Virus record (IMG/VR): IMGVR_UViG_2654588048_000003
Coordinates: 14,809-78,808 of that record
Origin: a virus
Lineage: Duplodnaviria; Caudoviricetes
Direction: 5' to 3' (one strand)
DNA length: 64,000 nucleotides
Part shown: positions 22,928 through 40,833 of the stretch, piece after piece
How the letters are laid out: every line of letters starts with the position of its first letter
Numbering within the stretch: the first letter of the stretch is position 1
Translations under genes and position numbers: made by a program
Notes under the pieces: generated by a model
Told to the model about the DNA's origin: nothing
Seen by the model: the letters and a program-made list of their open reading frames with translations, nothing else
Database searches by the model: none

Positions 22928-23491
22928 TTAGAACACATGAATTGATAGAGAAAACATATCTTCTATGTGATATCCATATCGCCTGGCCACTCCGTTGATA
23001 ATTCCTTCGGGCGTTTCCGTTCCACCTTTGAAAACTTCTGTCTTGTTGAGATGCTTATCGTAGACTTCCATCTTAATGATGTATCTGAAATTTGGTGGCT
23101 GCTTTACCGGAGCTTTCGCCTTAACTTCACCAGTAGTCCAGTATTCATAAAGAACATCGTCGCACTCATCTTGATACCGGATAACTTTATCCCTGATCGA
23201 TGCTTTAACTTTATTGGGGCTGATAGTTGCTAACCAGCCAGCAAGTTTGCGAAGGGCTAGGCAAACCATGTCTTGATTTCCTGTTTTGGTAGGTATTTCG
23301 ATTTCCGAAACACCTTTGCTAAAGCGCTGTTTTAATTTAACAAACTGAGCGCCCCAAGCTAAACCCATACCTTCAACAATAGGCTTCATTGGCACATATG
23401 GCTCGCCGTTATAATTAACGACATATAGATCTGAGCCATGAAATGGGACGTTAATAGTTTTACTTGGTTCATTAACTGGTATACTTAACAT
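22928..23491 (-). CDS. Antirepressor with P22AR N-terminal domain
   Basis: VPFHG..L...EPYVPMKPIVEGMGLAW..Q, LRKLAGWL, YQDECD.VLYEYW. Confidence 0.9.
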   Translation of the reverse strand: MLSIPVNEPSKTINVPFHGSDLYVVNYNGEPYVPMKPIVEGMGLAWGAQFVKLKQRFSKGVSEIEIPTKTGNQDMVCLALRKLAGWLATISPNKVKASIRDKVIRYQDECDDVLYEYWTTGEVKAKAPVKQPPNFRYIIKMEVYDKHLNKTEVFKGGTETPEGIINGVARRYGYHIEDMFSLSIHVF

Positions 23492-23738
23492 GTTTACTTC
23501 CTATGGCTAGGGTAGACGATTTATTGAAGCCCCTGACTACTGGTAATAGTTGGGGGCTTCACCGTTTTACAGTGATAAAGCGACACTATTTATCGCGTGA
23601 TTGTCACTTTTTGTAAAGATAACCTTTGTGAATTTGGGAAGTGCTTCGTAAATCAAATTTATAGCGAGTTAATCGATTGCATTAATAACGTAATGTGATA
23701 ATTTAACTATCCCTCAGCCATCCTTGGCCTCCAAATCC

Positions 23739-24497
23739 TTACGCTACTTCTACACCGTGAATCAGATGTCTGAGTGCTTTGATACCATTCTCGTTGTAAC
23801 GGAAAGCTTCGACCTGCTTATCAGAGTGAGCGGACTTATCCAGAAAGAACTTCCCGTACTGCTCATTCTTGAGGTTGTTCTTGTTGGCAATACGTCCAAT
23901 CTTGTTCGCTGACACTTCCAGCATTCCGCCTACTTCTCCAGCCGTGTAGTATTTTTCTTCCAGAGCGGGGAGAGGTACGGCTTCAAAGCCGACTATTGGG
24001 TTAACAATGTTGGCTGCTGCACACTGTTTTGCCTCACTACTCAGGTTTGGCATCAGGTCAAACAGATTGGAGATCGCATCAACCGACATCTTCAACGTTC
24101 TGGCACGACGATATTCGGGCAATCCAGATTGACTCTGTTTGATTGAATAGCTTCCTGTCTCCATAATGGATGGAAGCACGGATTCAAACACCCAATCTTG
24201 AAAACGTTCGGCAGAAGGCAAATTACTACGCATAATCAGACGGAACATGTCAGACTGACCCACAAGAATGATACCTTTCGGCTTAAACCCTAACCCTAAT
24301 TGTTCTGTATCAGCACAATTAAGTTTAATCAAAGACTTACAATGATCATTCAAAGCCTTAGCGGGCTGTACATAGCCCAAAGCCTGAGCCAATTCCACGG
24401 CAAAGAACACAGGCTTGCCTTTATATTTCAGCCCAGAGATGGTTACTAATTGGTCATTACTTGACTTGAACTCAAAATGTTTGATAATTGACTTCAT
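23739..24497 (-). CDS. Bro-N domain antirepressor-like protein
   Basis: P.FFA.ELA.ALGY, LIMRSNLPSAERFQDWVFESVLPSI. Confidence 0.9.
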   Translation of the reverse strand: MKSIIKHFEFKSSNDQLVTISGLKYKGKPVFFAVELAQALGYVQPAKALNDHCKSLIKLNCADTEQLGLGFKPKGIILVGQSDMFRLIMRSNLPSAERFQDWVFESVLPSIMETGSYSIKQSQSGLPEYRRARTLKMSVDAISNLFDLMPNLSSEAKQCAAANIVNPIVGFEAVPLPALEEKYYTAGEVGGMLEVSANKIGRIANKNNLKNEQYGKFFLDKSAHSDKQVEAFRYNENGIKALRHLIHGVEVA

Positions 24498-24685
24498 ATA
24501 TCTCTCCAGTGATATACCTATGAACACCAGCAACAGCAAACTGCTGGTTTTCTGTTTTCAGAACACTTGCAGGTGCTCTGGAAATTTGATTTGTCATTCG
24601 TTACAATGGTTAAGTTGTTTGTCTCACACGATAAATAACACTCAGGAGCCCTAGTCTGTTCGCGCAGCTAGGGCTTCGCTGCTTT

Positions 24686-24856
24686 CTATGCTGCATTCTT
24701 CCTTTGCCCTATTACTCTATTCATTCTGTCCTTCAAAATTTTCACAATCTCGGCATTTAGAGAGCGCCCGCTCTCGTTGGACTCTTCTTCATACCACTCT
24801 CTTAACTCAGGCGGCATTCTTAATGGATACGGGGGTATCCTTTGCTTGTGACTCAT
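24686..24856 (-). CDS. arc: Arc-like ribbon-helix-helix repressor (56 aa, not in ORF track)
   Basis: MSHKQRIPPYPLRMPPELREWYEEESNESGRSLNAEIVKILKDRMNRVIGQRKNAA. Confidence 0.88.
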   Translation of the reverse strand: MSHKQRIPPYPLRMPPELREWYEEESNESGRSLNAEIVKILKDRMNRVIGQRKNAA

Positions 24857-24979
24857 AATGATTCCTTTTTATCTTTCAAACCATCTTAATATAGTCAAAT
24901 GGTGGATCATAATGATTCATTTGTCAAACAGATATTTGATACCTATACTGCCAATTAGTGAGTCTAAAGGAGTCAAATA

Positions 24980-25420
24980 ATGTCACGTATAGCGCCATAC
25001 CCTTTACGAATGCCGCCTGAGTTAAGGGAAGCGTTAGAAGAGAGAGCTACAAAATCAAAGAGAAGCCTCCAGCAAGAGGTCATTTATCACATAGATATGT
25101 CGCTACAACTCGAAAAGCTTCTCGCGTCAGCGCCGCCATCATCAGACGATACCTATAAGCGAATAGCAAAGGCATTGAGACTAGAAAATGAAGTCAAAAA
25201 GAAAGATAAAAAAATTGAAGAGCTAAAGATGCAAGTCAGTCTGTTGGCTGAATCAACAAAAAACTCAGATACAGACAAATTTCGGGATATTGAAACTCAA
25301 GCAAGGTTTGCCCAAGAAGCATTAGAAAAGTTAATAAAAAATATCCCTCTAAGATATGAGGAGTTAGGTGAGAAGCTTACGCTCGCTAGAAGCATTTTTC
25401 CCAACAAAAAAGCCAAGTAG
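24980..25420 (+). CDS. Mnt-like RHH repressor with coiled-coil C-terminus
   Basis: YPLRMPPELRE.LE.RA....RSL..E; divergent from arc as in P22 immI. Confidence 0.85.
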   Translation: MSRIAPYPLRMPPELREALEERATKSKRSLQQEVIYHIDMSLQLEKLLASAPPSSDDTYKRIAKALRLENEVKKKDKKIEELKMQVSLLAESTKNSDTDKFRDIETQARFAQEALEKLIKNIPLRYEELGEKLTLARSIFPNKKAK

Positions 25421-25442
25421 GTATTATCAATTGGTTATCCAG

Positions 25443-25763
25443 CTACCGACAAATTTGGCGGTAGGGCTAAGCGGGAATTCCCACTTAGATCTGAATGAAC
25501 CGCATTGATTACTTTCAGACCAGACTGCATATTTGCAGTCTGAATATTTTTCAATGAGTTATCTATCTATTCACCCTAAGCCCTATTTCGGGCTTAGGTC
25601 AATATAACCTAAGCAGGAATTCTTGCTTAGCTCAAGTTAACTACCGTGATCTCGGTAGTTTCTACCAAGCTGCAAATATGCAGCTTGATTATTTTTCAAT
25701 GGATTATATTAAATTACTGACCTAAAAAATTTCGTAATCACTTCTCCTCAAATTGGGGAAAAG
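25443..25763. repeat. Array of sequence-diverse 22-23 bp near-perfect palindromes with IHF-like sites
   Basis: Units at 25443-25464, 25467-25488, 25521-25542, 25576-25597, 25609-25630, 25639-25660, 25666-25687, 25741-25763. Confidence 0.9.
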
Positions 25764-25797
25764 CCCACTGTAGGCCGCCCGGTGGCATATCATCAAC

Positions 25798-25819
25798 AAA
25801 AAAGCCCCGTGATGGGGCT
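25798..25819 (-). terminator. Intrinsic terminator of the TA-like operon
   Basis: AGCCCC stem with U6 on minus strand. Confidence 0.75.
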
Positions 25820-25843
25820 GTTTGTATTCTTTCTGCTATTGAG

Positions 25844-26197
25844 TTAAGCCGCTTTGTGACGTTTATTAGGCGGCTTTCTTTTTTCATTCTTCATCGCCCT
25901 ACTGTGAGCTTCGGCAAGTATCCGTTTTTTCTCACTATTGGCAAAGCGATTTAAAACTTGCCTGATTAATGGCTGATAGCCTAAACCACTAAGGTCGGCT
26001 ATCATTTTCAAATCTTCTATCAGAGATTTATTTAATCTGATTGAAATTGGCTGTAAGTCCAACGCTTCATTAATCAGATCTTCTGTTATGTCATCAGATA
26101 CTTTAACGTGAGCTTCACTGCATCCAAGCTCACCGTTATCCCACGCGTCATTAGTGGAAGCTATCAGGTGTGTTCGCTTATCAGTTTGTTTGCTCAT
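25844..26197 (-). CDS. CopG/BrnA-like antitoxin
   Basis: AWDNGELG; LQPISIRL...L..IA...GLGYQPLIRQVL RHH. Confidence 0.7.
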   Translation of the reverse strand: MSKQTDKRTHLIASTNDAWDNGELGCSEAHVKVSDDITEDLINEALDLQPISIRLNKSLIEDLKMIADLSGLGYQPLIRQVLNRFANSEKKRILAEAHSRAMKNEKRKPPNKRHKAA

Positions 26198-26496
26198 TTC
26201 TCTGTTCCTAGGCCGTATTTTTTGTAAATTCTTAATTCATCTTCGTTAGGTGCATAAGCCGTCCTTATAGCAACCCCTTTTTCTGGGTAATAAATAAAGA
26301 CTATCTTTAACTTAACACCATAATCAGTTTCAGATATAAACCACTTAGTCGGCGGGTCAGTTCTGTTATCTTCCCTTGTGTCTTCAAGGAAGTATCCAAC
26401 CCGATTCGAAAAACACTGGAGTATATCTTCTTCATTAACAGGCGGGTTTTTGTCTGCCAACTTCAATCTGATGTTTGATGAAATCAAGAGCTTCAT
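26194..26496 (-). CDS. BrnT/DUF4258-like putative toxin
   Basis: EDTRE..RTDPPT.WFI.ET..G..LK.VF...IRTAY; ATGA-coupled to the RHH gene. Confidence 0.6.
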   Translation of the reverse strand: MKLLISSNIRLKLADKNPPVNEEDILQCFSNRVGYFLEDTREDNRTDPPTKWFISETDYGVKLKIVFIYYPEKGVAIRTAYAPNEDELRIYKKYGLGTEK

Positions 26497-26764
26497 GTAT
26501 CGGCGTCTTTAACCTATGGTTAATCTGTATATACAGAGTACACCACGAAACAGATCCAAACAACTCAAAAAGACTCATAAGTATCTATGAGTTTTGTATC
26601 ATCAATAGATAAAATGCATTACATGATTATTAAATCTGTATATACAAAAATTTAGATAATTAAAGTCATCTGTGGATTGGCTGCTATCACTTCTTCATAC
26701 TCACCAATCTGCGCTTGCCGCTCACTTACAAGCATCTCCAATAAAAGCCCCTCGCGGGGCTAAT

Positions 26765-27052
26765 TTACTTCTTCTCATCCATAGCGATGATTTCTTTGGC
26801 GGTTTTGCCTCCGATCATCTTGTTGATTGCTTTTACCTTATCTTCTTCGTTGTCTGTTACTAAGCGAGCAGCCAACCCAACATTAAGAACAGCCGCTTTG
26901 AATTTTGCTGCCTCATCTTTATCAAGTGATTTATAAATAGCTTGCGTAGAAGTCTTTAAAACCTCAGGGTTTGATGCATCTATCTTTAACTCTTTTTCGC
27001 CGCATCCAGCTAAAAAAACAGCCAAGATAATTGGTAATAACAATTTTTTCAT
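26765..27052 (-). CDS. Small lipoprotein moron
   Basis: MKKLLLPIILAVFLAGC lipobox; own terminator at ~26743-26761. Confidence 0.85.
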   Translation of the reverse strand: MKKLLLPIILAVFLAGCGEKELKIDASNPEVLKTSTQAIYKSLDKDEAAKFKAAVLNVGLAARLVTDNEEDKVKAINKMIGGKTAKEIIAMDEKK

Positions 27053-27119
27053 AATGATTCTCTCAAAAAAAGATTGATGATTAATTAAACCACTAAGAAA
27101 CTGCAATCGGAAGCAAACT

Positions 27120-29048
27120 TTACCCAGCTCCGTTAGTTAACTGGTTTTTTGTATTGTAGCCAGCAGCTTTTAATGCTTTACTGAATCCATCAATAGACCG
27201 CTGAGCTACAGCCTCAGAAGACCCGCCTGTTACTGATTGATGTATAGTGACATTTCCGTATTGGGTACCCTGTACAGCGCTATTAGTGGTATTGCTAGCA
27301 TTAGCAACAGCACTACCGATAAATCCCCCTGAGCCAGCCATAACAGAAGATTGAATATTTTTAAGATCATCATCACTAAAACCAAAGGTGGGTTCATCTG
27401 GTTTTGTATTTCCAGTAAAAAAGTCACTTACAGCCTTAATCTTAGCAGCCACTTTGTTGTAGTACTCCATTACCCAATCCAGCGCATCCTTAAATGGCTT
27501 CTTAATCAGTTCCTTCACCTCAGAGAATCGCTTACCGATACCATCAACAAACTTACTTACGTCATTTTCGTTCAGCCCGAATAGGCTCAGAACGAACTTG
27601 AACGCCTCTTTAAATGGGGTAGTCAGTAAGTCAAGGATCAGGTCAAAGATCTTACCGAGTTTCTTTGTCCATGTTGTCGAGTCATCGGTGAAGATGCTAT
27701 ATAGGCCTTTGACGAACTTGAATGCGGCTACGAATGGGTAGGTAATCCAGTACCAGATAAAGCTAAATCCTTCTCCTAGTTTATCAACGAACCGATTAGC
27801 ATCCTGCTCATTCATGCCGAACTGTTTCAGGATGTATTTAAAGCCGTCACGGAATATCCGCTTAATCTCCTGCCACGTCTTGGCAATCATCTTCCAGAAG
27901 CCACCGAATGCCGATTCTCCTGTGGTTATCCATTGGTACAGGTCATACAGGACATAGGCCAGCCCCGCAATTAACGCTATCACTAATCCGATGGGGTTCA
28001 TCATTAGCGCACGACCCAGCCAGATAAAGGCTTTGCCCGCTGTCATGACCAGCGTTATTACCCGGGAGATAGGGGAGAAGATGAGTTTCAGTGCACTAGC
28101 AAATCCACCCACGCCTTTTGTTACCGCCAGAAATACATTGGAGCCAAACATTATCGCTAACATGCCGCCGATGAGCTTTATCGTGGTCTGCATCTCACCG
28201 GATAAGTTATTCCACCACGCCTTAACATCCTTTATCCATTTGATGCACGCTCCCCAGAAATCACCGAATAGGGAGTCTCCACCGTCAAGGTAGACCATCA
28301 GGTCATCCAGTAGCAGCATCAGTCCGGCTATGGCGGCAATGACCCAGAAAACGGGGTTGGCAATGAACGTCATGATCATCCCGCGTTTAACTATTGCCAG
28401 TACGCCCGCCAGTATCAATAGTGCGTTTTTCCAGCCAATCGTCCCGCCAATGGCTTTATCAACGGCTTTCACTGAGTTCATGACAACCTGAATGACTTTG
28501 CCGCCTGCCTGGATAACTTTAGTTAATCCTTTGGTGATTAAATCTTTATTGGCAGTTATCCAGTCATTGAACTTCTTCACGATAGCCGTCAGGGAGGGGA
28601 CGAGATTTAAGGCGATTTTAGTCTTAACTGACTGGATCGCCAGCCCCGTCTTTTGCATCGCCTCCTGATACTCGTCAGCCTGTGCCAGTTCCTGCTTTGA
28701 AATGTCGTACAACAAGCCTTTCTGTTCAGCCAGTTCTTTAGCACCTGCCAGTGATTCGTTAATGAATCCCATGACTTTAGCTGTGGCCATGCCAACGACA
28801 GCAGTTACACCGACTGCCAGTAGCTTTAGCTTGTTCAGGGAGCCTTGTGCTTCCTCCGCTTTCTGCCCGGCTTCGTCCAGATTGTCAGAGGTGTTATCGC
28901 CGATATCATCCATATTCTGGTTGATCTTGTTGGCCTCATTCGCAATCTGTACCGCAGCAGCAGCGAGGGCAACAATGACATCATTGATTTTGGCTGCCTG
29001 TGTTGTGTCCACGCCAATGCTGACGAGCAGCTCATCGATTTGCATCAT
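27120..29048 (-). CDS. Tape measure protein
   Basis: Long helical protein with W/F periodicity, after tail chaperones. Confidence 0.9.
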   Translation of the reverse strand: MMQIDELLVSIGVDTTQAAKINDVIVALAAAAVQIANEANKINQNMDDIGDNTSDNLDEAGQKAEEAQGSLNKLKLLAVGVTAVVGMATAKVMGFINESLAGAKELAEQKGLLYDISKQELAQADEYQEAMQKTGLAIQSVKTKIALNLVPSLTAIVKKFNDWITANKDLITKGLTKVIQAGGKVIQVVMNSVKAVDKAIGGTIGWKNALLILAGVLAIVKRGMIMTFIANPVFWVIAAIAGLMLLLDDLMVYLDGGDSLFGDFWGACIKWIKDVKAWWNNLSGEMQTTIKLIGGMLAIMFGSNVFLAVTKGVGGFASALKLIFSPISRVITLVMTAGKAFIWLGRALMMNPIGLVIALIAGLAYVLYDLYQWITTGESAFGGFWKMIAKTWQEIKRIFRDGFKYILKQFGMNEQDANRFVDKLGEGFSFIWYWITYPFVAAFKFVKGLYSIFTDDSTTWTKKLGKIFDLILDLLTTPFKEAFKFVLSLFGLNENDVSKFVDGIGKRFSEVKELIKKPFKDALDWVMEYYNKVAAKIKAVSDFFTGNTKPDEPTFGFSDDDLKNIQSSVMAGSGGFIGSAVANASNTTNSAVQGTQYGNVTIHQSVTGGSSEAVAQRSIDGFSKALKAAGYNTKNQLTNGAG

Positions 29049-29612
29049 TCGCCCTCTGTTTTGCCAGCAACTCTTCGACGTGCGCCTCATGGAAATCAAG
29101 CACATCAGAAAGGGTTGCTGTGGTTCTCAGGTCATGGCCTGTGTATTTTCCGCGTAGGATTGGAGTCATTTTCAACCAGTCCACATCGGAGGAGGAGGAA
29201 CTTACTTGCCGAGGATCGCCGAGAGATTGATATTTTTCGCAGATGCGACCCCAGCGGGCAAAAAATCCGCGAAATGGAATATCACCCCGTCATAAATCAC
29301 CTGAAAATAATGTGAACGGTGAGCGTTCCAGTGGCTATTGGCGGTATCCGGTCTCTGCAACAGGACAGTTTCACCTGACTCATCCGTGGCCGTGATATAT
29401 TTCAGAATGAATTGTTCAACGCCGGCCATTTCGGGCGAGCCAATATTGGATAAAATCGCCCCTAAATCCACGTCAACGAGGGGTTTTCCAGTCTCAGAGA
29501 CTCCGGAAGTTTTGATGCAGCCTTTCAGTAGGCCAATCAATTTCATTGCGTGATTTTTGGCATCCATGAAATTCGCCTGGCGGTGTTCGTAAGTGATGTT
29601 ATCGATAATCAT
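29032..29612 (-). CDS. Tail assembly chaperone (29202-29612) plus -1 frameshift extension ending at 29032
   Basis: T TTT TTG at 29259-29265; -1 frame open to ...VDWLKMTPILRGK...RANDANR-stop. Confidence 0.75.
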
Positions 29613-30046
29613 GAGTTATAAATTCCTTTCTTGAGCTTCATGGTCGAGGTTGTGGATTTCAGTGTCCACGATGTACCGTTATGTGTCGTACCACGGGTAG
29701 CTGTTGGCGGCGTGGTAAAGAAGCAGCTTTCCAAAAGAATCTCATCGCCGTTAATCGTATCTTTGTAATAGATATGCAGCGGTGAAAACGCCTTCGGTGT
29801 ATTTATTTGAATGTTGCGCAGATTGTTGAGGAATTCATTATCAGCGCAGTGTTGCAACAATTTGAGGGTGAGTATCATTCCCTTATTGCAGGTAGCAACG
29901 AATACCCCATTGCCGTTCACACCATAGGTAATGTCGCCATCATCACCCACGGGCGCTATATTCAGCGCATCGCCTGTATTCTCGTAGCCTGTAATCTCAT
30001 AACCAGAGATAGTCAGTATGGATTGAGCGTGATTATATTGAGCCAT
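29609..30046 (-). CDS. Tail tube protein (DUF3277-like)
   Basis: Follows sheath; TLKLLQ..ADN..L. Confidence 0.8.
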   Translation of the reverse strand: MAQYNHAQSILTISGYEITGYENTGDALNIAPVGDDGDITYGVNGNGVFVATCNKGMILTLKLLQHCADNEFLNNLRNIQINTPKAFSPLHIYYKDTINGDEILLESCFFTTPPTATRGTTHNGTSWTLKSTTSTMKLKKGIYNS

Positions 30047-30055
30047 GTTTACCCC

Positions 30056-32789: not shown

Positions 32790-33148
32790 CGCACCACCAA
32801 CATATGTCGAGAGACCAACTTACGCAGACTCAAATACGTCTGCCCGTAGGAACTGGACGCATAGCCCTCATGGTTAGCCCCGAACCCCGCATCAGGCGCA
32901 GAGTAGCCGGTGGACAATCCACCCGCTGATTTACTCATGGCTATTTGTACGGGTTTTCCGTTGCTGTTACCGCGTCGGGTTAATGCGCCAGAGACATAGA
33001 GGAAGTGAGCAGCAAGCGCCTGTCGCCCCTGTTCATAGAGCTTATTCCATACTTTGCTGCTCATTTGGTTAGCAGCATCCTGTAGCGCTATCTCGATGCG
33101 ATTTTCGTCAACTTTGGCAAATTCGGGGTAACGGGTGAGAAAATCCAT
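32786..33148 (-). CDS. DUF4054 head-tail adaptor
   Basis: F..RYPEF, AAH.L, SSYGQ.Y. Confidence 0.85.
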   Translation of the reverse strand: MDFLTRYPEFAKVDENRIEIALQDAANQMSSKVWNKLYEQGRQALAAHFLYVSGALTRRGNSNGKPVQIAMSKSAGGLSTGYSAPDAGFGANHEGYASSSYGQTYLSLRKLVSRHMLVVR

Positions 33149-33162
33149 GTTACCCCCTGTGG

Positions 33163-34122: not shown

Positions 34123-34125
34123 CTA

Positions 34126-34605
34126 TTACTCTCCTACTTTTTGAGTGTAACCAAGGGTGATAGCCACGCAGTGATTACCGGCGCTAACTTCTTCAACCCA
34201 ATAACCTAAATCGATGTTGCCTTTTGCCGTGATAGTCACTTTCCCTGCGTTCTTGCCAGTTGCAACAACATACGCCTTACTACCACGAGTAAACTCATCG
34301 CCTTCTACTGCTAACGCGCCTACGCAGTCACCGTGAGAAAAATGACCAATGTTTACCTGTTTTTTGTGCGGTGCTTTATCACCGTAGATATCACGAACGA
34401 CAATACCGTGGATCACATCCGTCAGAGATGAGAGGGTCTTCACTCCACCTTCTGGATTTACTGCAACAAAAGTACCGTATGGCAAATCTGTTTCAGTGCG
34501 GTTTTCTTCACCCCAAATCTTGTCGTTTGAGCTGGAAGCCCGCTTGATAGAACCGGGCTTAATCGTGCCTCTCTCGGCATCCCAATCTGTAAATCCAAAT
34601 GTCAT
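34126..34605 (-). CDS. Capsid decoration/cement protein
   Basis: LPYG.FV, GIVVR; precedes capsid. Confidence 0.75.
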   Translation of the reverse strand: MTFGFTDWDAERGTIKPGSIKRASSSNDKIWGEENRTETDLPYGTFVAVNPEGGVKTLSSLTDVIHGIVVRDIYGDKAPHKKQVNIGHFSHGDCVGALAVEGDEFTRGSKAYVVATGKNAGKVTITAKGNIDLGYWVEEVSAGNHCVAITLGYTQKVGE

Positions 34606-34607
34606 GA

Positions 34608-35765
34608 TTATTTACCTCCGAAACGTTGAGACGCTGACTTTTTCGCTGCTTGCGCTGAGTCAGTGAGAATATGCGTACCGATATTGCTGCGTGGTTTTGA
34701 TGTCGCCTGAACAGCCGCATATGCTGCACGAATTTCATCGTCAGACATCGCCTTGACCTGAGCGTCGTTAAACACTTTGGTGCTTAACAGAACTGCCGCA
34801 CGGACATCACGCGAGGATTTGGCATCGTTGAAATTCACTTTCGGGAATCTCACTTTGGCATCGTTCAATGTAGAACTGGTGTCGCTCTCACCTTTCAGCT
34901 TTTCCAGTTCCTCTTTGAGCGAGGCGTTTTCTGTTTTCAACTGTTCGTTTTCAGCTTCCAGTGCTGCTATGCGTGCGTCTTTGTCATCCGTACCACCAGC
35001 AGCCGGATCGTCATCATTTGGCTTGGGTGGAGGTGCTGCGCCTTTTGATGCTTCCAATTGAGCTTTTAGCTCCGCCAGTTGAGCCACGATTTCCTGCGCT
35101 TTCGCTGTGGTCTCTGGTGCTGCATTGCCTTCCAGTTCTTGCAGTGTTTTTTCCAGTGCATCAATCATGCCGATCAGCTCTTCCTCGGTCAGAGGTTGCC
35201 CCTCGGCATCTTTAGTGCGCTTACCCTTGAGTAATGCAATGGCATCTTTCAATGTCTTAATCATTGGTCTACCTTTCTTGTCGTTTAATCTACAGGTGTC
35301 GCCTAAGCGCCCCTCAGCTACTACGGCAACATGATTGCCGCGAATATTGATTTGATGTAATCCACCGTTTTTCTCAATTAACTCAGCAGGCTCATAGCCC
35401 ACAGAGAGTTCCCGTATCCCTTTTTCCTCCAATACCTGAATGGCCTTGGCATCTTTCAGATAAGCGTCACAGACGATGTAATCACCGTCAGCCCTAACGT
35501 TCTGAATGTGACCAATAGTCTTATCCTTCCACTCGTCAGCGTTAACCTCACCGCTATCTGGATGCGTTAGCGTCAGTGTTAATCCGTCAAATGATTTTAG
35601 GGTTTCAGGCTTGGAGAGTTCTTCGATGGTGCGGTGAATGGTGATCTTCTTATTGATGTCTTTTCCGGTTAACCCGACTTCGTGTCCGTAATACTCCACT
35701 GGGCCAGCACGAGTTATCCGCGCAGAGGTTTCAACGTAACCCTGCGGTGTTCGTTTCCACGTCAT
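34608..35765 (-). CDS. DUF2213 prohead protease/scaffold
   Basis: TPQGY, THP, ELSVGY, NHVAVV..GR. Confidence 0.9.
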   Translation of the reverse strand: MTWKRTPQGYVETSARITRAGPVEYYGHEVGLTGKDINKKITIHRTIEELSKPETLKSFDGLTLTLTHPDSGEVNADEWKDKTIGHIQNVRADGDYIVCDAYLKDAKAIQVLEEKGIRELSVGYEPAELIEKNGGLHQINIRGNHVAVVAEGRLGDTCRLNDKKGRPMIKTLKDAIALLKGKRTKDAEGQPLTEEELIGMIDALEKTLQELEGNAAPETTAKAQEIVAQLAELKAQLEASKGAAPPPKPNDDDPAAGGTDDKDARIAALEAENEQLKTENASLKEELEKLKGESDTSSTLNDAKVRFPKVNFNDAKSSRDVRAAVLLSTKVFNDAQVKAMSDDEIRAAYAAVQATSKPRSNIGTHILTDSAQAAKKSASQRFGGK

Positions 35766-35768
35766 GAA

Positions 35769-36635
35769 TTAATCCCATGAGACTTTTGGAAGAGCCACAC
35801 AACGACACTGATAGTCTGTGCCGGGTGCGCCTTCATACCCTTTGATACTTGAGCGTTTCTTCCACGTTTTACCGCCATCGTCTGAATAGACGGTGGGATC
35901 TGAGTATTTGCAGGTTTTGCCATTCAGAGCGACATGGGTTACCCGTTCTCGCTCATCACCCGCGCCACCCCATTCGTACAGGTCAAGTCCAAGCGCTTTC
36001 TGCCTTGTCTCGGTCAGGGCGGCATTGAGTTTCGCGGTCTGGTCACGGGCAATGAGTTTTGCTCGGCTTTGTGTGACCTGACCACGCTCACGAATGAGAG
36101 AGACTAAATTCTCGTGTCGCCCGCCTTTGGTTAGATTGGTGAAAACTTTTTCCCCGATATCGTTGATGAAATCCGTCTGTATCGATTTGATTAAATTAAC
36201 ATTCTCTTTTAACGCGCCGTCGAGTTGACTCTTTACTGCGCCATCACCCAACATACCTGTCAAATCAATCCCAAATACAGACTGGTAGGTCTTTTGCGTC
36301 TGCGACTTATTTTGCTCATTGGCGCGTTTGACCATACCGAATGACAACCGCCGTGCCATATCGAGAATGGACATATTCGCCAGTTTCTGGATTGCTCGTG
36401 AGAGTCGCGCGGTAATTGAGAGGGGAGGTGAATCTGGTGCGTCGTTCAGTATTGGGCGTTGCAGGTCTTCTATCACGACATCCTGCATCATCCTGATAAA
36501 TTCAATGAGCTTGTCACGATACCAAACCTCTGTCCTTTTACTGGGAGTAGGCGGACGCATTAGCCGATTGCGGGATTTGAGTCGCCCCTGCTTGCGCTCC
36601 AGCATCTCTTTCAGGCTGATTGCTCCATTGCTCAT
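35769..36635 (-). CDS. Mu gpF-like head morphogenesis protein
   Basis: RAKLIARDQTAKLN, DERER.TH, PG.DYQCRC. Confidence 0.92.
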   Translation of the reverse strand: MSNGAISLKEMLERKQGRLKSRNRLMRPPTPSKRTEVWYRDKLIEFIRMMQDVVIEDLQRPILNDAPDSPPLSITARLSRAIQKLANMSILDMARRLSFGMVKRANEQNKSQTQKTYQSVFGIDLTGMLGDGAVKSQLDGALKENVNLIKSIQTDFINDIGEKVFTNLTKGGRHENLVSLIRERGQVTQSRAKLIARDQTAKLNAALTETRQKALGLDLYEWGGAGDERERVTHVALNGKTCKYSDPTVYSDDGGKTWKKRSSIKGYEGAPGTDYQCRCVALPKVSWD

Positions 36636-37941
36636 TATTTACTCCTGCCAATGAACTAATATCCTCTTCTGTAACCGTGGTCAGAACGCCGCGAGCAACC
36701 ATCTCACGCAATGCTATGTCTTCGGGAAGAAAGCCCGCCTGAACCATTGCTGTGAATCCCGTTGCATACTGTCCAAATCGGTTCGCCTGTTCTGCTTCGT
36801 TGACGCTGTAGATAGAGGGGTAGGTGTAACTGATTTCAACATCAATCGTTAGCTTGTCGAGAATGAACTGATCAACGAAATCCTGCATGGGACGCAATCT
36901 GGACTCCTGCAAGCCGTTGATGGTCTCGTAGTACGCCTTGTTATCTTCTTCCCCAGAGGCAAACCCGCTAGCAGATTGACCAAACAGAATAGTGATTGGT
37001 CTGTCCAGCGCTCCCGCCAGCACGTTAATCATTCGGGTTATCACATCGGAGAGACCATTAAATTGCGCGTTTTTCTGTTCATAGCGGCTCTGCATCGCGC
37101 TATCACCAGCATCTATCAGCATCATCCCCGTTGACGACTTGGTCTGTTTCATCACTCGGGCATACTCGACTACCTGTGCTTCTTGCCCTGAGTCAATCTG
37201 GCGATTTAAGTCCGGCAGAAAAATAACATCAACGTTTGCCTCTTGGATTGTGTCACCCGTGCTCACAATGGTTGCATCGAAGATTTTGATAGCTTCATAG
37301 GGCGCTTGAATATCTGATGTGCCGTGTTTGGCGATATCTTTCAGGCTGCGTTGACCCAGCTTTGTACGGTGACAACGTGAATGGTGAAACTTAAGTTGCT
37401 GACTGCCGATACTGAGCTGATAGGTCTGAGGATGCCCAAAATATGGTGAGGCAATATCAGAGATGACTTTATCAGAGGGTGAGTATTCCCCCTTTCTCAG
37501 AACCAGAAACTTGATGATATCCTCTGACTGGAGATTTAGCGGTTCACTAATCATTTCATCAGGACAATCAGTCACCGCCACTATCAGCGAATCCCCCAGC
37601 AATGATGCCCAAGTCAGAGCATCACGATAGATCCCATACACATCTAACTCGCGCTCAATGTCTTCTATCCGTGTTTTCAACTCTTCATCAATATCGCCAG
37701 ATAGCTCACGGGGAAGTTTCAACATGTCATCGGCGGTTTTGTTGATAAACTTCTTCACCACCCATGAGTTTTTGTACATTGAGAGCAACTCTTTATCTTG
37801 TACATCTGCCTTATTGCCCGTGTACTTGATTGCCGCTACCCGTTCGCCAATTGAAGTGTGTGTACTGACCAGACCATCACTAAGGCGTGGGGCAGTCCTG
37901 TACGGAGTTTTAGCCTTCCGGCTATTTTTTCTTTTGCTCAT
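36538..37941 (-). CDS. Portal protein (DUF1073)
   Basis: Y..SW, HHSR, P.TILFGQS.SG..SGEED...YY. Confidence 0.9.
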   Translation of the reverse strand: MSKRKNSRKAKTPYRTAPRLSDGLVSTHTSIGERVAAIKYTGNKADVQDKELLSMYKNSWVVKKFINKTADDMLKLPRELSGDIDEELKTRIEDIERELDVYGIYRDALTWASLLGDSLIVAVTDCPDEMISEPLNLQSEDIIKFLVLRKGEYSPSDKVISDIASPYFGHPQTYQLSIGSQQLKFHHSRCHRTKLGQRSLKDIAKHGTSDIQAPYEAIKIFDATIVSTGDTIQEANVDVIFLPDLNRQIDSGQEAQVVEYARVMKQTKSSTGMMLIDAGDSAMQSRYEQKNAQFNGLSDVITRMINVLAGALDRPITILFGQSASGFASGEEDNKAYYETINGLQESRLRPMQDFVDQFILDKLTIDVEISYTYPSIYSVNEAEQANRFGQYATGFTAMVQAGFLPEDIALREMVARGVLTTVTEEDISSLAGVNNEQWSNQPERDAGAQAGATQIPQSANASAYSQ

Positions 37942-39164
37942 TACATGATGTCCCAAACTGTTGTCCTGCCTTTGATATACCCATCCAGCCCATAACGAGC
38001 AGCATCCCAACAATGGTTGTGCTTATCCTCAATCGTGGGGAGAACGTCGCCCGTGATACGATCTGTCTTGTATGAGTAGAGACGGGCTTCTTTTGCTGTT
38101 TCTTTGCAGCGTGGATGGATGATGATTTTCGTGAAGCCGCGCAGGTAGGAAATGCCATCTTCTACGCTGCCTTGCCACTTCTTGGCGGCTGAGATATTGA
38201 ATCCCTGCCGCTTGAGATAGCTGATTGTCTCCGGTCTGGCAGAGTCAGCTTTTATCGGCCACTTACGCACCTCGGGTATTTTGTCGTAAAATGCTGGCAT
38301 GTGGTCGAGTTCCACCCCTATACCGTAGGCTTCATATTCGATATGCAGAATGTTATCCAGAATGAACATACGGAGAAGAGTACTGGGATCCCGAGCAAAG
38401 CCGAAATCCCCACCAAACAGTAGCCTGTCCGCTTTCTGCCATAGGTCATCAGGGAATGATTCGATTTTGTACTTACCAGCTAGAACTTGCTTATCGGAGT
38501 TTTCGAGATAAGCCCCTTCCCATATCCAAGCGTAGGTGTTCGGGTCAAGACGTGATTGGTCACTCAGCCGCTCTTCTTCCAGCACAGACGGAAACCACGG
38601 ATTGTCGTTGTAGTTCATCTCGACAATTATCGAGTTTTCCGGTGGGTTCTCTCTGAATCGTTTATCGGTGGCGCTTCCGTCTCTTTCTGGGTTCCACGTC
38701 ACCCAAATTTCAGAACCTGGTTCACGAACTGTTGGTGTGAGTTTTGTCCATGCGGTTTCTGATACGGATTCAGCCTCATCAACCCACGCAATTAATATTC
38801 GTGCTTTAGACTTGATACTGTCGAGGTTGTGACGCAACCCAGCGAATACATAGCTTACTGACTTACATTTTGTTCGAATGTACTTCTCGCCAATCTCGTA
38901 GAAGTTAGCCAGCCACGGAACAGAGCGTATTGCTTGTTTCACTTCCTCCATTGATGATTCTTCAAGGGAGTTCATGTACTCACGAGCGCAGAGTATCACG
39001 CCCGATTGTCCGTTCTGTGCTGCCATGTAGCCACGAATAGCCGTCATTAATGCAAATGAACGAGTCTTAGCTGATCCACGCCCACCGTATGAACCGCGAT
39101 AACGATAGTCACCACTGAATACCGGAATGAGTTTGGGCGGGAGTTCAATTCTCGCTATTGTCAT
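37941..39164 (-). CDS. terL: Terminase large subunit, PBSX type
   Basis: GGRGSAKT, WVDEAE, DFGF, NHCWDAARY. Confidence 0.95.
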   Translation of the reverse strand: MTIARIELPPKLIPVFSGDYRYRGSYGGRGSAKTRSFALMTAIRGYMAAQNGQSGVILCAREYMNSLEESSMEEVKQAIRSVPWLANFYEIGEKYIRTKCKSVSYVFAGLRHNLDSIKSKARILIAWVDEAESVSETAWTKLTPTVREPGSEIWVTWNPERDGSATDKRFRENPPENSIIVEMNYNDNPWFPSVLEEERLSDQSRLDPNTYAWIWEGAYLENSDKQVLAGKYKIESFPDDLWQKADRLLFGGDFGFARDPSTLLRMFILDNILHIEYEAYGIGVELDHMPAFYDKIPEVRKWPIKADSARPETISYLKRQGFNISAAKKWQGSVEDGISYLRGFTKIIIHPRCKETAKEARLYSYKTDRITGDVLPTIEDKHNHCWDAARYGLDGYIKGRTTVWDIM

Positions 39165-39561
39165 TCTGACCTCCGGCAACCAGAATCACCTTGGTGGGTT
39201 GCGGGGACATTGAGCCATCAGGGGAACGGTGATCGATTTCCTGCTTATCAGAGTAACCGTGATTAGCCAGCATCAGCTTAGTAATAGTCGCGTTGAAATC
39301 ACCTGACAGGCCTTTATTAATCAGCCTACTTTCCTGTAGCGCCAAAATCCCTTCTAACGTGTCCGAAAACTCTTCTGATTGCTTCGCATATTCATAAACA
39401 GTTGAACGCGCTATAGCGAGATAACAGGCCAGTCCTGCAACGCTTGGAATGACCGCTTCTTCTTCATCTTTGTAACCGCCATACAGATATTCTTTTGCCT
39501 TAGCGATTAGCTCGCCAGTCAGCTTGCTAGGGCAACCAACCTGATTTGTTTGTTGTCCCAT
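39145..39561 (-). CDS. terS: Terminase small subunit
   Basis: IPSVAGLA, GL.GDFNATITKL.L.NHG. Confidence 0.85.
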   Translation of the reverse strand: MGQQTNQVGCPSKLTGELIAKAKEYLYGGYKDEEEAVIPSVAGLACYLAIARSTVYEYAKQSEEFSDTLEGILALQESRLINKGLSGDFNATITKLMLANHGYSDKQEIDHRSPDGSMSPQPTKVILVAGGQNDNSEN

Positions 39562-39704
39562 GTTCCATTTCCCCATAAATTAGAATAAATAACTGGTTCG
39601 GTTTATATAACCCGCTATTCGGACGATACCACCGAAGCCCAAAACCTATACAAACCTCTATCAAGCACCCGAATGTGGATGCTTTGCAGAATTTTGTGAA
39701 AGGG

Positions 39705-39890
39705 TCACTTAGATTTATATAACGCAAGCATTCCACTCACGGCCTCGTCTAATTTTTCTCGATACCATCGGGGTTCATCAGTCGGAACACGCCTTCTTTC
39801 TGATAAAACATCTCGTTGCGTCTTCGTATAGTCATGCGCCACCCTGAGAACTTCGGCCTGAACCACGGGATCTAAATCTGATAGTTTCAT
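39705..39890 (-). CDS. Hypothetical protein
   Basis: 61 aa, ATGA-coupled. Confidence 0.6.
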   Translation of the reverse strand: MKLSDLDPVVQAEVLRVAHDYTKTQRDVLSERRRVPTDEPRWYREKLDEAVSGMLALYKSK

Positions 39891-40297
39891 ACTCTTACCT
39901 TTTTCAGATTCATTTCTTCGTCAGTCGGCAGGCGGTAAAATCCGCTTGTCTCTCTGATACCAATGTCCATTAGCATTATCCCGAACTCATGCAGGAAAGC
40001 ATTCATGTAACGCTTACCGCGTTTACTAAGCTCTGGTGCAACACCACCTATAAAGACGACGCGCTCACTGGGCTTTTTCTCATATGGCTCAAGTAGCCTA
40101 TCGTAAAACAATGCCTGACTACTGGAACTGAGCTTTTCATTTAGCCTGCCATCAAGCAGGCCAGCAATGAAATGCTGGTTGACCTGTATGTCCCCAAACA
40201 GATGTCGATACACTAGGCTCTGATTGATTTTCATTAGGTGATAACAGTAGGCTTCGGCAACACGCCAGCATAAAAACTCATGGGTTGGCATTCTCAT
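39887..40297 (-). CDS. Hypothetical protein
   Basis: 136 aa, coupled to KilA-N gene. Confidence 0.65.
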   Translation of the reverse strand: MRMPTHEFLCWRVAEAYCYHLMKINQSLVYRHLFGDIQVNQHFIAGLLDGRLNEKLSSSSQALFYDRLLEPYEKKPSERVVFIGGVAPELSKRGKRYMNAFLHEFGIMLMDIGIRETSGFYRLPTDEEMNLKKVRV

Positions 40298-40833
40298 GAT
40301 TTCACTTCCTCCAGACCGGGAATGGAAAATTGTATTTCTTTAGCCAGCAATTCTCTGTCTGATTCAATCCTCTGCTTCTCGCCACCAACGCCCCAGCTAT
40401 TCATTATTCTGGCGGCCGTACTAACCCTTCGTTTCTTGCTTTGATACTCAAGTTCAAGTCGATTGGCTTGGGCAAATTTGCTTAAGTGACCAAGAATAAA
40501 AGCACGGAATGTTTGGTAAACTTTCACCTCGAACGCTGGAGAGAGCCAAGCAGCATAACGAAGAGCAATTAACTCATGTGCCCATGTGCCGCGATAAGCG
40601 CCCCCACGAATAACATCAAGTATTTGATTTTGCTCCAAAGTGTTTTTTAGCACTTTGGAAACTTCATCTATAAATGCTTGAATTCCATCGGAAGAAAGAA
40701 ACTGACTAGGCACCTGCCACTTTTGCGCTAAGCCTCCCGCTATTGCTGCCTTGTGCAGGTCGTTAAGGTTATAAGTTCCGTGCTCATTACTACGGACTTG
40801 AATGTTTTCAATTACGATAGTTGGGTAATTCAT
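40294..40833 (-). CDS. KilA-N domain protein
   Basis: YNLNDLHKA, GTWAH..IAL.YAAWLSPAFEVKV. Confidence 0.92.
   Translation of the reverse strand: MNYPTIVIENIQVRSNEHGTYNLNDLHKAAIAGGLAQKWQVPSQFLSSDGIQAFIDEVSKVLKNTLEQNQILDVIRGGAYRGTWAHELIALRYAAWLSPAFEVKVYQTFRAFILGHLSKFAQANRLELEYQSKKRRVSTAARIMNSWGVGGEKQRIESDRELLAKEIQFSIPGLEEVKS

What the first reader, a model, noticed from the sequence alone, without database searches (positions are those of the whole stretch)
23292..40657. Three unrelated antirepressor-type genes each hide a 22-23 bp palindrome in coding sequence
Seen: P22AR-N gene GGTATTTCGATTTCCGAAACACC (23292-23314, encodes GVSEIEIP). Bro-N gene AATTGTTCTGTATCAGCACAATT (24298-24320, NCADTEQL). 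KilA-N gene CAAAGTGTTTTTTAGCACTTTG (40636-40657, KVLKNTL; extends to 26 bp). Each lies inside the N-terminal DNA-binding domain and matches the array's unit size. From my recollection of these families, these peptides fall in segments that vary between homologues. Inference: the DNA symmetry, not the peptide, is selected; it could be a self-binding site (like iterons within lambda O) or a hypervariable switchable element.
Basis: partly seen in the sequence, partly recalled or inferred. Interest (0 to 1): 0.85.

Follow-up and report, generated by a model that had tools for sequence, protein, structure and literature searches.

The report
Conserved palindromes inside phage antirepressor genes
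Three phage regulator genes each carry a short DNA palindrome inside their coding sequence, and relatives from very different phages keep a palindrome at the same spot while changing its letters in matched pairs, which points to an undescribed signal written on top of the protein code.

Summary
The three palindromes exist where stated but are imperfect: 8/11, 9/11 and 8/11 pairs. Alone they are unremarkable. The window holds 226 comparable 22/23-bp windows against about 172 in shuffles.

In all three families (P22_AR_N, Bro-N, KilA-N) an inverted repeat sits at the same protein-aligned position, with unrelated stem sequences.
- It is the top-scoring helix of the whole CDS in 18 of 27 genes examined; 1.4 expected.
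- These include P22 ant, 933W ant, P1 kilA, 80alpha, and Gordonia and Synechococcus phages.
- Pairs covary: P22AR is 89% paired against 28-41% with slid partners, and third-codon positions show all four Watson-Crick pairs.
- One arm is read in two different frames in P22 and 933W.
- Synonymous variation at the palindrome codons is about a third of that in the rest of the domain, in all three families.

So nucleotide symmetry, not the peptide, is selected. The function is not shown. My best guess is a DNA-level cis site, possibly bound by the gene's own DNA-binding domain. An mRNA stem-loop and template-switch homogenisation remain rivals. The link to the 22-bp array is not supported.

The parts
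23291..23315 (.). Inverted repeat inside the P22_AR_N gene. On the coding (-) strand it reads AGGTGTTTCGGAAATCGAAATACCT, CDS nt 177-201, codons 59-67. The centre lies on the third base of codon 63.
   Evidence: It is the best helix of the CDS. In 40 distinct homologue segments the 12-pair helix is 89.4% paired, and 9 pairs change on both sides.
22928..23491 (-). Antirepressor-type gene, 187 aa, with a P22_AR_N domain at residues 14-123.
   Evidence: Pfam E 1.2e-41. 364 relatives were found in IMG/VR.
24291..24327 (.). Inverted repeat inside the Bro-N gene. On the coding strand it reads TAAACTTAATTGTGCTGATACAGAACAATTAGGGTTA, CDS nt 213-249, codons 71-83.
   Evidence: It is the best helix of the CDS. 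In 15 distinct homologue segments the 18 pairs are 81.9% paired, against 27-51% with slid partners.
23739..24539 (-). Antirepressor-type gene, 266 aa from a TTG start, with a Bro-N domain at residues 37-123. The conserved Met15 may be the real start. It is the 'ant' position of a P22 immI-like module.
   Evidence: Pfam E 2.9e-17; alignment A1. Arc-domain genes lie at 24686-24856(-) and 24980-25420(+).
40634..40659 (.). Inverted repeat inside the KilA-N gene. On the coding strand it reads TCCAAAGTGCTAAAAAACACTTTGGA, CDS nt 175-200, codons 59-67: 9-bp arms and an A-rich 8-nt loop.
   Evidence: It is the best helix of the CDS. The 10-pair helix is 87.5% paired in 8 segments. Among 42 distinct top helices from 80 further loci, 18 lie at this site.
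40294..40833 (-). KilA-N domain gene, 179 aa, domain at residues 8-112, with a weak ORF11CD3 C-terminal match.
   Evidence: Pfam E 1.1e-18. AlphaFold2 model pLDDT 80. The nearest PDB fold is the Mbp1 DNA-binding domain 1bm8.

Best explanation
Shown: each of the three genes carries, in the least constrained stretch of its N-terminal DNA-binding domain, an inverted repeat that is kept by selection on the nucleotides. Homologues in phages of Proteobacteria, Firmicutes, Actinobacteria and Cyanobacteria have an inverted repeat at the same protein position. The stem letters are different, the two arms change together, and synonymous sites there are unusually conserved.

Inferred: the element acts at the DNA level as a single cis site, a dyad-symmetric duplex or an extruded hairpin/cruciform. 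The most economical partner is the DNA-binding domain that the gene itself encodes. These genes are mobile 'morons' that move between unrelated phages and hosts, so the one factor that always travels with the palindrome is its own product. Binding there would give autogenous control of a toxic regulator, or a mark of 'self'.

This would work like three precedents: lambda O protein binding iterons inside gene O, the aba DNA element inside bstA (a KilA-N-like gene), and, from recall, HK022 Roi binding inside roi.

I put about 0.85 on 'a selected nucleic-acid element' and about 0.4 on the DNA-level cis-site mechanism. The confidence given here is for the mechanism.
For: Conservation of position
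- The helix at the aligned site is the top helix of the whole CDS in 18 of 27 genes (6/9 per family); 1.42 expected; Poisson-binomial P about 2e-17, treating genes as independent.
- Among 80 further KilA-N loci there are 42 distinct top helices, of which 18 lie at query residues 60-64.

Covariation
- P22AR, 40 distinct segments: 89.4% paired, against 72.6% in shuffles (0/500) and 28-41% with slid partners. 9 of 12 pairs change on both sides.
- The third-codon pair 61.3-65.3 reads UA 12, AU 9, CG 7, GC 6.
- Bro-N: 81.9% paired against 27-51% slid; 6 of 18 pairs change on both sides.
- KilA-N: 87.5% against 25-42% slid. One double change is synonymous on both sides, and the other pairs a Lys-to-Arg change with a synonymous Leu codon change.

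Not the peptide
- The arm CAACTAT is read as F-N-Y in P22 and S-T-I in 933W, while the other arm keeps its frame.
- Synonymous shuffles that keep each protein reach the site helix in 0-3 of 300 for the window gene, P22, 933W, PfDIW6 and Gordonia.

Purifying selection on silent sites (site against the rest of the domain)
- P22AR 0.166 against 0.442; Bro-N 0.162 against 0.487; KilA-N 0.129 against 0.387.
- P = 0.0018, 2.6e-5 and 0.0024.

DNA rather than sense RNA
- Over 24 independent helices, sense-strand G.T/T.G mismatches number 25 and A.C/C.A 24. The sense RNA fold is the more stable in 11 and the antisense in 11.
- 7 of 24 helices pair to within 2 nt of the centre, which a hairpin cannot use.

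Plausibility of DNA binding
- The KilA-N model is nearest to the Mbp1 DNA-binding domain.
- A cognate DNA element inside the locus of a KilA-N-like protein is experimentally known: aba (passages of bioRxiv 10.1101/2020.07.13.199331).
Against: - No binding was or could be tested here.
- Stems differ between close relatives whose proteins are otherwise about 75-90% identical. A sequence-specific self-site would then need its specificity set by the few residues the palindrome itself encodes. Otherwise the recognition would have to be structure-specific.
- No second copy of any of the three palindromes exists in the window at up to 3 mismatches (two weak KilA-N-like hits at 34757 and 42037). The P22 ant palindrome has no second copy in the P22 genome. 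So this is not an operator family.
- All 9 KilA-N helices have loops of 4 nt or more, which is ordinary hairpin geometry.
- The strand-bias test is confounded by coding constraints; for example Leu TTG/CTG changes create A.C mismatches.
- Some family members lack the element: Mycobacterium phage Maddy2, Edwardsiella phage Edno5 and phiC2.
- HK022 roi, whose self-binding I only recall, has a pRha N domain and no strong palindrome there.
Confidence: 0.4

Rival explanations
1. It is an mRNA stem-loop. The inverted repeat folds in the sense transcript and tunes expression of a potentially toxic regulator, by ribosome pausing, mRNA decay or RNase III-type processing, or by protecting the message. 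Universal host machinery would explain its presence across host phyla.
For: - The stems are free to vary as long as pairing is kept, which is the classic signature of an RNA helix.
- KilA-N loops are 4-8 nt and A-rich.
- G.U cells are common in the P22AR helix: columns 13-29 GU 12, 17-25 UG 6, 19-23 GU 38.
- The element sits 135-260 nt into the CDS in all three families.
- P22 ant is already known to be regulated at the RNA level by sar (annotation).
Against: - There is no sense-strand preference: G.T 25 against A.C 24, and sense more stable in 11 against antisense in 11.
- 7 of 24 helices pair to within 2 nt of the centre.
- No Rfam family matches at gathering threshold in the window apart from the tRNA.
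- No terminator-like tail or promoter overlaps the sites.
- No raw RNA reads were available to look for ends.
Confidence: 0.3
2. There is no function. The arms are kept alike by a mutational process, namely template switching at quasi-palindromes (concerted evolution of the two arms), in a protein loop that tolerates any sequence.
For: - Template switching can create perfect stems and copy a change from one arm to the other in a single event (title, abstract and search listing of PMC8794818).
- The sites lie in variable, indel-rich protein segments.
- Several elements are perfect through the centre.
- Contigs of relatives show the P22AR and Bro-N palindromes inside short, locally diverged patches: 23269-23354 and 24301-24372.
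Against: - Synonymous variation is suppressed about three-fold at the palindrome codons in all three families. That indicates purifying selection rather than a hotspot.
- The position is kept across phages of four bacterial phyla although the stems share no sequence. A neutral element would have to be regenerated at the same codon in every lineage.
- Across all candidate helices in the same gene alignments, the P22AR site scores 0.387 against a next-best of 0.074 among 2827.
Confidence: 0.12
3. It is chance, or a by-product of the peptide. The palindromes are the ordinary background of a 64-kb sequence, or they follow automatically from a beta-strand-like amino-acid pattern.
For: - Single-sequence statistics are unremarkable.
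- Some base pairs come free with conserved residues, for example Ile/Val ATN/GTN opposite Ile ATN, and Gly GG opposite Pro CC (reading).
Against: -: 18 of 27 against 1.4 expected.
- Third-codon positions covary.
- One arm is read in two frames.
- Protein-preserving codon shuffles rarely reach the observed helix.
- Synonymous variation is suppressed.
Confidence: 0.03
4. It is a hypervariable switch: a site for inversion or programmed diversification of the domain.
For: - The inner stems of the P22AR element differ among close relatives.
- Locally diverged patches appear in the contigs of relatives.
Against: - No strand-changing joints appear in the four runs laid. These were contigs only, so rare variants are invisible.
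- Nucleotide diversity at the Bro-N and KilA-N sites is the lowest in the domain.
- Inverting a near-perfect palindrome would change almost nothing.
Confidence: 0.02

Closest known systems
Lambda-type origin iterons inside the initiator gene (gene O). This window has its own example: 21-22-bp tandem repeats at 48798-48924 inside the HTH_36/DnaD_N replication gene 48449-49189(-).
   Same: Both are cis-acting DNA sites written into the coding sequence of a DNA-binding protein, in a segment where the protein tolerates change.
   Different: Iterons are several direct copies next to an AT-rich region and they fire replication. Here there is one inverted repeat per gene with no second copy. It lies inside the DNA-binding domain itself, and the genes are not replication initiators.
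BstA / anti-BstA (aba) self-immunity element of prophage BTP1 (passages of bioRxiv 10.1101/2020.07.13.199331; also listed as PMC8585504).
   Same: The protein has a KilA-N-like N-terminal domain. A short element inside its own locus acts as DNA and is cognate to each homologue.
   Different: aba is 63 bp, spans 29 bp upstream plus the first 34 bp of the gene, and depends on terminal direct repeats. The elements here are inverted repeats of 22-37 nt in mid-domain. Whether the window's KilA-N gene belongs to the BstA family was not tested.
HK022 Roi binding a site within its own gene, and parS inside spo0J/parB (both recalled; the Roi paper PMC178163 is not held).
   Same: These are phage or bacterial DNA-binding proteins whose palindromic or specific site lies in their own coding sequence.
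   Different: Roi's N domain is pRha-like, and I found no strong palindrome in it. Neither case is known to me to show covarying stems across families.
Covarying RNA stem-loops within coding regions, and the sar/ant antisense control of P22.
   Same: Pairing is conserved while the sequence changes. The sites are in the same class of genes (ant).
   Different: sar acts at the ribosome-binding site of ant (annotation), not at codons 60-68. The element here shows no sense-strand bias.
Quasi-palindrome template-switch mutation (PMC8794818; seen as title, abstract and search listing only).
   Same: Both explain paired changes in the two arms and perfect stems.
   Different: It is a mutational mechanism, not a function. 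It does not predict the suppressed synonymous variation or the fixed position across phyla.
Rickettsia palindromic elements inserted in frame in protein genes (recalled).
   Same: Palindromic DNA is tolerated in surface segments of proteins.
   Different: Those are multi-copy mobile repeats with a shared sequence. Here every gene lineage has its own unique stem.

Membership tests
Origin iterons within an initiator gene (lambda O type) | Several direct repeats of one unit, bound by the encoded protein | tested here: not met
   Each gene has a single inverted repeat. No further copy exists in the window at up to 3 mismatches, nor of the P22 element in the P22 genome.
Origin iterons within an initiator gene (lambda O type) | The host gene is a replication initiator | tested here: not met
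   The genes are P22_AR_N, Bro-N and KilA-N. The window's initiator-like gene is elsewhere, at 48449-49189.
BstA-aba self-immunity | The protein has a KilA-N(-like) N-terminal domain | tested here: met
   This holds for 40294-40833 only. BstA family membership itself was not tested.
BstA-aba self-immunity | The element overlaps the gene start and has terminal direct repeats | tested here: not met
   The elements are inverted repeats at codons 59-83, in mid-domain.
BstA-aba self-immunity | The element acts as DNA and is cognate to its own protein | not testable with these tools
   This needs genetics or binding assays.
Structured cis-regulatory RNA in mRNA | Base pairs are kept through compensatory changes | tested here: met
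Structured cis-regulatory RNA in mRNA | G.U is tolerated on the transcribed strand far more than A.C | tested here: not met
   25 against 24 over 24 helices. The test is confounded by codon constraints.
Structured cis-regulatory RNA in mRNA | Loop of at least 3 nt | tested here: inconclusive
   17 of 24 helices have a loop of 3 nt or more; 7 of 24 pair to within 2 nt of the centre.
Structured cis-regulatory RNA in mRNA | Match to a described RNA family | tested here: not met
   The Rfam gathering scan of the window found only the tRNA.
Intrinsic terminator | GC-rich stem followed by a T run | tested here: not met
   No terminator-like site overlaps 23291-23315, 24291-24327 or 40634-40659.
Neutral quasi-palindrome (template-switch) hotspot | No constraint on silent sites beyond arm homogenisation | tested here: not met
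   Synonymous differences are 0.13-0.17 at the sites against 0.39-0.49 elsewhere in the domains.
Site-specific inversion switch | Both orientations, or strand-changing joints, present in sequence data | tested here: inconclusive
P22 immI-type module (context of the Bro-N and P22AR genes) | Divergent Arc-family repressor genes upstream of the antirepressor gene | tested here: met
   There are Arc domains in 24686-24856(-) and 24980-25420(+).

The most novel reading that the evidence does not exclude
The palindrome is the cognate recognition site of the very domain it encodes. The nucleotides that form the dyad also encode the variable strand or loop of the DNA-binding domain, so site and reader change in the same mutational step. 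This would give each antirepressor-type gene a private, self-updating 'self' mark, used for autogenous control or for telling its own phage genome from competing prophages, in the manner of aba. It would be conserved from actinophages to coliphages, and possibly ancestral to a common Bro-N/KilA-N/P22_AR_N fold.
Probability: 0.12. Interest if true: 0.95.

Novelty: new variant of a known kind. Interest (0 to 1): 0.8.

Why it matters
Bro-N, KilA-N and P22_AR_N domains are among the commonest and least understood modules of phages, satellites and large DNA viruses. P22 ant and P1 kilA are textbook genes.

A nucleotide-level element kept at one position of these domains, across phages of four bacterial phyla, would be a new layer of information in them.
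- It offers a handle on what the domains bind.
- It may explain how toxic regulators on mobile 'moron' genes are kept in check, or recognised as self.
- It warns that codon-optimised or recoded versions of these genes may not behave like the natural ones.
- It is a clean natural case for separating selection on DNA/RNA structure from template-switch mutation inside coding sequence.

My seven literature searches of the open-access library found no description of it. Older subscription papers on P22 immI could not be read.

Tried and rejected
- Near-identical DNA search of the phage collection with 22900-24600: no match.
- Whole-gene palindrome counts and codon shuffles: not significant. I first read this as 'chance' and dropped that reading after the homologue test.
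- PDB sequence searches for the three proteins: nothing useful.
- Profile comparison between the three families: only E 0.05-0.26 at about 1% probability. Common ancestry is therefore not shown.
- AlphaFold2 of the P22AR protein: poor, pLDDT 50. Its placement of the palindrome in a beta strand is weak.
- Bro-N in other places of the record: one weak hit, which is the terminase nuclease domain. No pRha or ORF6N genes.
- HK022 roi as a test of the recalled 'binds within its own gene': its N domain is pRha-like and has no strong palindrome. The original paper is not held.
- Second copies of the palindromes: none convincing.
- Promoter and terminator scans: nothing at the sites.
- Link to the 22-bp palindrome array: rejected.
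- Relatives of the 80alpha gene: all 80 loci were 99-100% identical, so useless for covariation.
- Sequencing runs: only assembled contigs, with no raw reads. RNA ends, expression and rare variants could not be examined. Parts without cover mean nothing.
- In the first helix scan the Bro-N site ranked only 6th of 5145. The later tests on Bro-N are stronger, but that result stands.
- Rows dropped before counts:
  - Homologues with gaps in the site segment were left out of alignments A4-A6. L099 (P22AR), L131 (Bro-N) and L112 (KilA-N), all 30-43% identical, were also left out.
  - Maddy2, Edno5 and phiC2 were left out of the strand and loop counts because they have no helix.
  - In one search the site windows for P1 kilA and Stx2-1717 were too narrow, so they count as misses there, although one search shows helices scoring 9.0.
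- Supplementary files of papers were not opened. The supplements of the BstA paper may hold aba sequences that bear on the comparison.

Full report
**What is at the coordinates**

They are imperfect palindromes.
- 23292-23314 has 8 of 11 pairs.
- 24298-24320 has 9 of 11.
- 40636-40657 has 8 of 11, or 10 of 13 in the 26-bp form.

The host ORFs are all on the minus strand.
- 22928..23491: P22_AR_N, E 1.2e-41.
- 23739..24539: Bro-N, E 2.9e-17.
- 40294..40833: KilA-N, E 1.1e-18.

The window is the last 64 kb of a 78.8-kb IMG/VR provirus record. The Bro-N and P22AR genes sit in a module laid out like P22 immI. Two Arc-domain genes lie at 24686-24856(-) and 24980-25420(+) (the P22 layout is). A cI-type repressor lies at 50194-50904, and a replication gene at 48449-49189 carries tandem 21-22-bp repeats.

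**Is it more than chance in this one sequence? No**

Windows of 22 or 23 bp with at least 8 of 11 pairs occur 103+123 times in the window, against 84.9+86.7 in 100 dinucleotide shuffles. That is roughly one per 300 bp.

In 2000 synonymous-codon shuffles of each gene, a palindrome at least as good somewhere in the gene arises in 83%, 18.5% and 80%. On this evidence alone I would have called the finding chance.

**The homologue test reverses that**

I fetched 80, 80 and 13 related loci from IMG/VR and mapped the sites codon by codon.

- P22AR: of 29 distinct site variants, 23 keep 7-9 of 11 pairs, although the inner stem letters differ. The encoded peptide changes with them (GVSEIEIP, TVTEIVIV, GITEIVIP, GMVEITIP, GIEEISIP and others).
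- The five P22AR variants with 3 or fewer pairs are distant homologues (37-59% identity). L099, L149, L155 and L160 have palindromes scoring 8.5-11 on a centre shifted by half a base; L094 scores 7.0.
- Bro-N and KilA-N homologues show the same behaviour.
- KilA-N has two double changes in the stem. One is synonymous on both sides (AAA to AAG with ACT to ACC). The other pairs a Lys-to-Arg change with a synonymous Leu codon change.

**Formal counts on gap-free, distinct site segments**

- P22AR, 40 segments, 12 pairs:
  - 89.4% of cells are paired. Shuffles give 72.6% (0 of 500 reach the observed value), and partners slid by 1-3 columns give 28-41%.
  - 9 pairs change on both sides.
  - The covariation score is 0.473 against 0.157.
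  - Two third-codon positions pair with each other (61.3 with 65.3) as UA 12, AU 9, CG 7, GC 6, other 6. A protein constraint cannot produce that.
- Bro-N, 15 segments, 18 pairs: 81.9% paired against 27-51% slid. 6 pairs change on both sides. Covariation is 0.145 against 0.110, reached by 4 of 500 shuffles.
- KilA-N, 8 segments, 10 pairs: 87.5% paired against 25-42% slid. 2 pairs change on both sides. Covariation is 0.175 against 0.088, reached by 0 of 500.

The sequences are related, so the shuffle control is lenient. The slid control keeps relatedness and is the safer comparison.

I also scanned all candidate 8-pair helices over the whole gene alignments.
- The P22AR site is first of 2827 (score 0.387, next 0.074).
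- The KilA-N site is first of 3591 (0.163, next 0.096).
- The Bro-N site is only 6th of 5145.

**Deep conservation of position**

I took eight named, distant homologues per family from GenBank phages. I aligned them as proteins and looked at the DNA under the aligned site.

P22AR site:
- P22 ant has CAACTATGTCGATATCGACATGGTTG.
- 933W ant has CAACTATAACGGAAATCGTTATGGTTG.
- Gordonia phage BENtherdunthat has the perfect CACGCGTAACGATGATCGTTACGCGTG.
- Pseudomonas, Pasteurella and Synechococcus phages have other stems.

Bro-N site:
- Providencia, ICP1, Liberibacter, Enterococcus, Microbacterium Min1, Lactobacillus A2 and Staphylococcus 80alpha phages each have their own inverted repeat.

KilA-N site:
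- SE1Spa, APSE-2, mEp460, P1 kilA, Ralstonia Eline (CGTTCCGGGGATTCCCGGAACG), Mx9, BUCT695 and Stx2-1717 do too.

The helix at the site is the top helix of the entire CDS in 18 of 27 genes (6 of 9 in each family) and second in 4 more.
- Three genes have none: Maddy2, Edno5 and phiC2.
- Two count as misses only because my site window was too narrow: P1 kilA and Stx2-1717.
- Uniform placement predicts 1.42 of 27, giving P about 2e-17 if the genes are treated as independent. They are not fully independent.
- Codon shuffles that keep each protein reach the observed helix at the site in 0-3 of 300 for the window P22AR gene, P22, 933W, PfDIW6 and Gordonia. For weaker cases the figure rises to 51 of 300.

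A further 80 KilA-N loci gave 42 distinct top helices.
- 18 lie at query residues 60-64.
- 3 lie at residues 70-74; two of these are the same element shifted.
- 8 lie at a second recurrent helix just upstream.
- 13 are scattered.

**It is the nucleotides, not the peptide**

Besides the third-position covariation there are two more lines of evidence.

First, in P22 the left arm CAACTAT is read C|AAC|TAT (F-N-Y). In 933W it is read CA|ACT|AT (S-T-I). The right arm ATGGTTG keeps its frame, and the one-base difference is absorbed by the loop.

Second, among sequence pairs with the same amino acid, the share that use different codons drops at the palindrome codons:
- P22AR: 0.166 at the site against 0.442 in the rest of the N domain (P 0.0018, 72 sequences).
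- Bro-N: 0.162 against 0.487 (P 2.6e-5, 28 sequences).
- KilA-N: 0.129 against 0.387 (P 0.0024, 12 sequences).

Silent sites are therefore under purifying selection there. This also argues against a purely mutational origin.

**Where in the protein**

- KilA-N: the site is the most variable, indel-bearing stretch of an otherwise conserved domain. In an AlphaFold2 model (pLDDT 80) it is the end of helix 49-63 plus the low-confidence loop 64-71, just before a beta hairpin. The model is nearest to the Mbp1 DNA-binding domain (1bm8, E 0.029, TM 0.41/0.48), as expected for KilA-N.
- P22AR: the model is poor (pLDDT 50). It places the site in the first strand after helix 46-56.
- Between families: weak profile alignments (E 0.05-0.26) put the three sites at matching places. 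That hints that the three families may share a fold and an ancestral element, but it does not show it.

**DNA or RNA?**

Over 24 independent helices:
- Sense-strand G.T/T.G mismatches (25) equal A.C/C.A mismatches (24).
- The sense RNA fold is the more stable in 11 cases and the antisense in 11.
- Seven helices (4 of 7 P22AR, 3 of 8 Bro-N, 0 of 9 KilA-N) pair to within 2 nt of the centre, which a hairpin cannot use.
- No Rfam family, promoter-like site or terminator-like site coincides with the elements.

This leans towards a strand-symmetric, DNA-level constraint. Coding constraints confound the strand test, and KilA-N loops look like ordinary hairpin loops.

No second copy of any element exists in the window, and none of the P22 element exists in the P22 genome. 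It is a single site per gene, not an operator family.

**Mechanism**

Shown: a selected inverted repeat at a fixed place in three domain families.

Inferred, at about 0.4: a DNA-level cis site. The most economical binding partner is the domain the gene encodes, because these genes move between unrelated phages and hosts and their own product is the only constant companion.

Precedents:
- Lambda O iterons. The window's own replication gene shows the same design.
- The aba DNA element in the locus of the KilA-N-like BstA protein. It acts as DNA and is cognate to each homologue, but it lies at the gene start and depends on direct repeats (passages read).
- From recall only, HK022 Roi binding within roi.

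Rivals: an mRNA stem-loop (0.3), neutral template-switch homogenisation (0.12; PMC8794818 seen as listing and abstract), chance or peptide by-product (0.03), and a switch (0.02).

**What is not supported**

The link to 'the array'. The seven near-perfect 22-bp palindromes at 25443-25687 share no sequence with the gene-internal elements. They are missing from the nine related loci examined, except for one unit in L082.

**Reads**

Only assembled contigs of public runs were available. Laid on 22900-25800 they show the following:
- Relatives are alike on both sides but locally diverged across 23269-23354 (two runs) and 24301-24372 (one run). Both patches include a palindrome.
- No strand-changing joints appear.
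- Contigs cannot show rare variants or RNA ends.

**Novelty**

Seven searches of the held library found no description of these elements. The passages read were in PMC10111431, PMC12111858, PMC13397905, PMC3430580 and the BstA preprint.

I rate the finding a new variant of a known kind: a cis element embedded in the coding sequence of a DNA-binding protein. Interest is high because it touches textbook genes and is directly testable.

Noticed in passing
window 25443-25687: There is an intergenic cluster of seven near-perfect 22-bp palindromes (9-10 of 11 pairs) of three sequence types: CTACCG.., CTAAGC.. and CAGACTGCA/CAAGCTGCA. It lies just downstream of the mnt-like Arc-domain gene. Two units are followed by a shared T-rich motif. 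It is not conserved in nine related loci, except for one unit in L082. Its function is unknown.
   Followed up: partly
window 48798-48924, inside ORF 48449-49189(-): There are tandem 21-22-bp repeats (5.7 copies), each holding a short dyad, inside a gene with HTH_36 and DnaD_N domains. A DnaC/IstB-like ATPase gene follows at 47724-48449. This looks like origin iterons embedded in the replication initiator gene, as in lambda O.
   Followed up: partly
window 24646-24678 and 24555-24584: Two hairpins lie between the arc-like gene and the Bro-N gene. The first resembles the P22 sar terminator hairpin and recurs with compensatory differences in related loci (L082, L083, L085, L087, L091, L093). This suggests a sar-like antisense RNA in this module.
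   Followed up: no
loci L218, L224, L228, L237, L249, L258, L260, L266 (KilA-N homologues), about query residues 50-54: A second recurrent helix lies just upstream of the main KilA-N site in one subfamily. It is the top helix of the domain-coding region in 8 of 42 distinct cases.
   Followed up: no
window 52218-52250: This is the strongest inverted repeat of the whole window (score 15; AT-rich, 33 nt). It is intergenic, between ORFs 50914-52065(+) and 52560-52940(+), near the cI-type repressor gene.
   Followed up: no
window 22278-22559(-) and 22546-22824(-): A YafQ/ParE-type toxin gene (Pfam E 1e-30), with a small upstream ORF, lies next to the antirepressor genes. It is probably a toxin-antitoxin pair carried by the prophage.
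   Followed up: no
window 43753-43828(-): A tRNA-Phe (GAA) gene lies inside the prophage region.
   Followed up: no
window 23269-23354 and 24301-24372: In contigs of related genomes these short patches around the P22AR and Bro-N palindromes are replaced by diverged sequence of nearly the same length, while the flanks stay at least 85% alike. This may be mosaic exchange or fast evolution of just this segment.
   Followed up: partly
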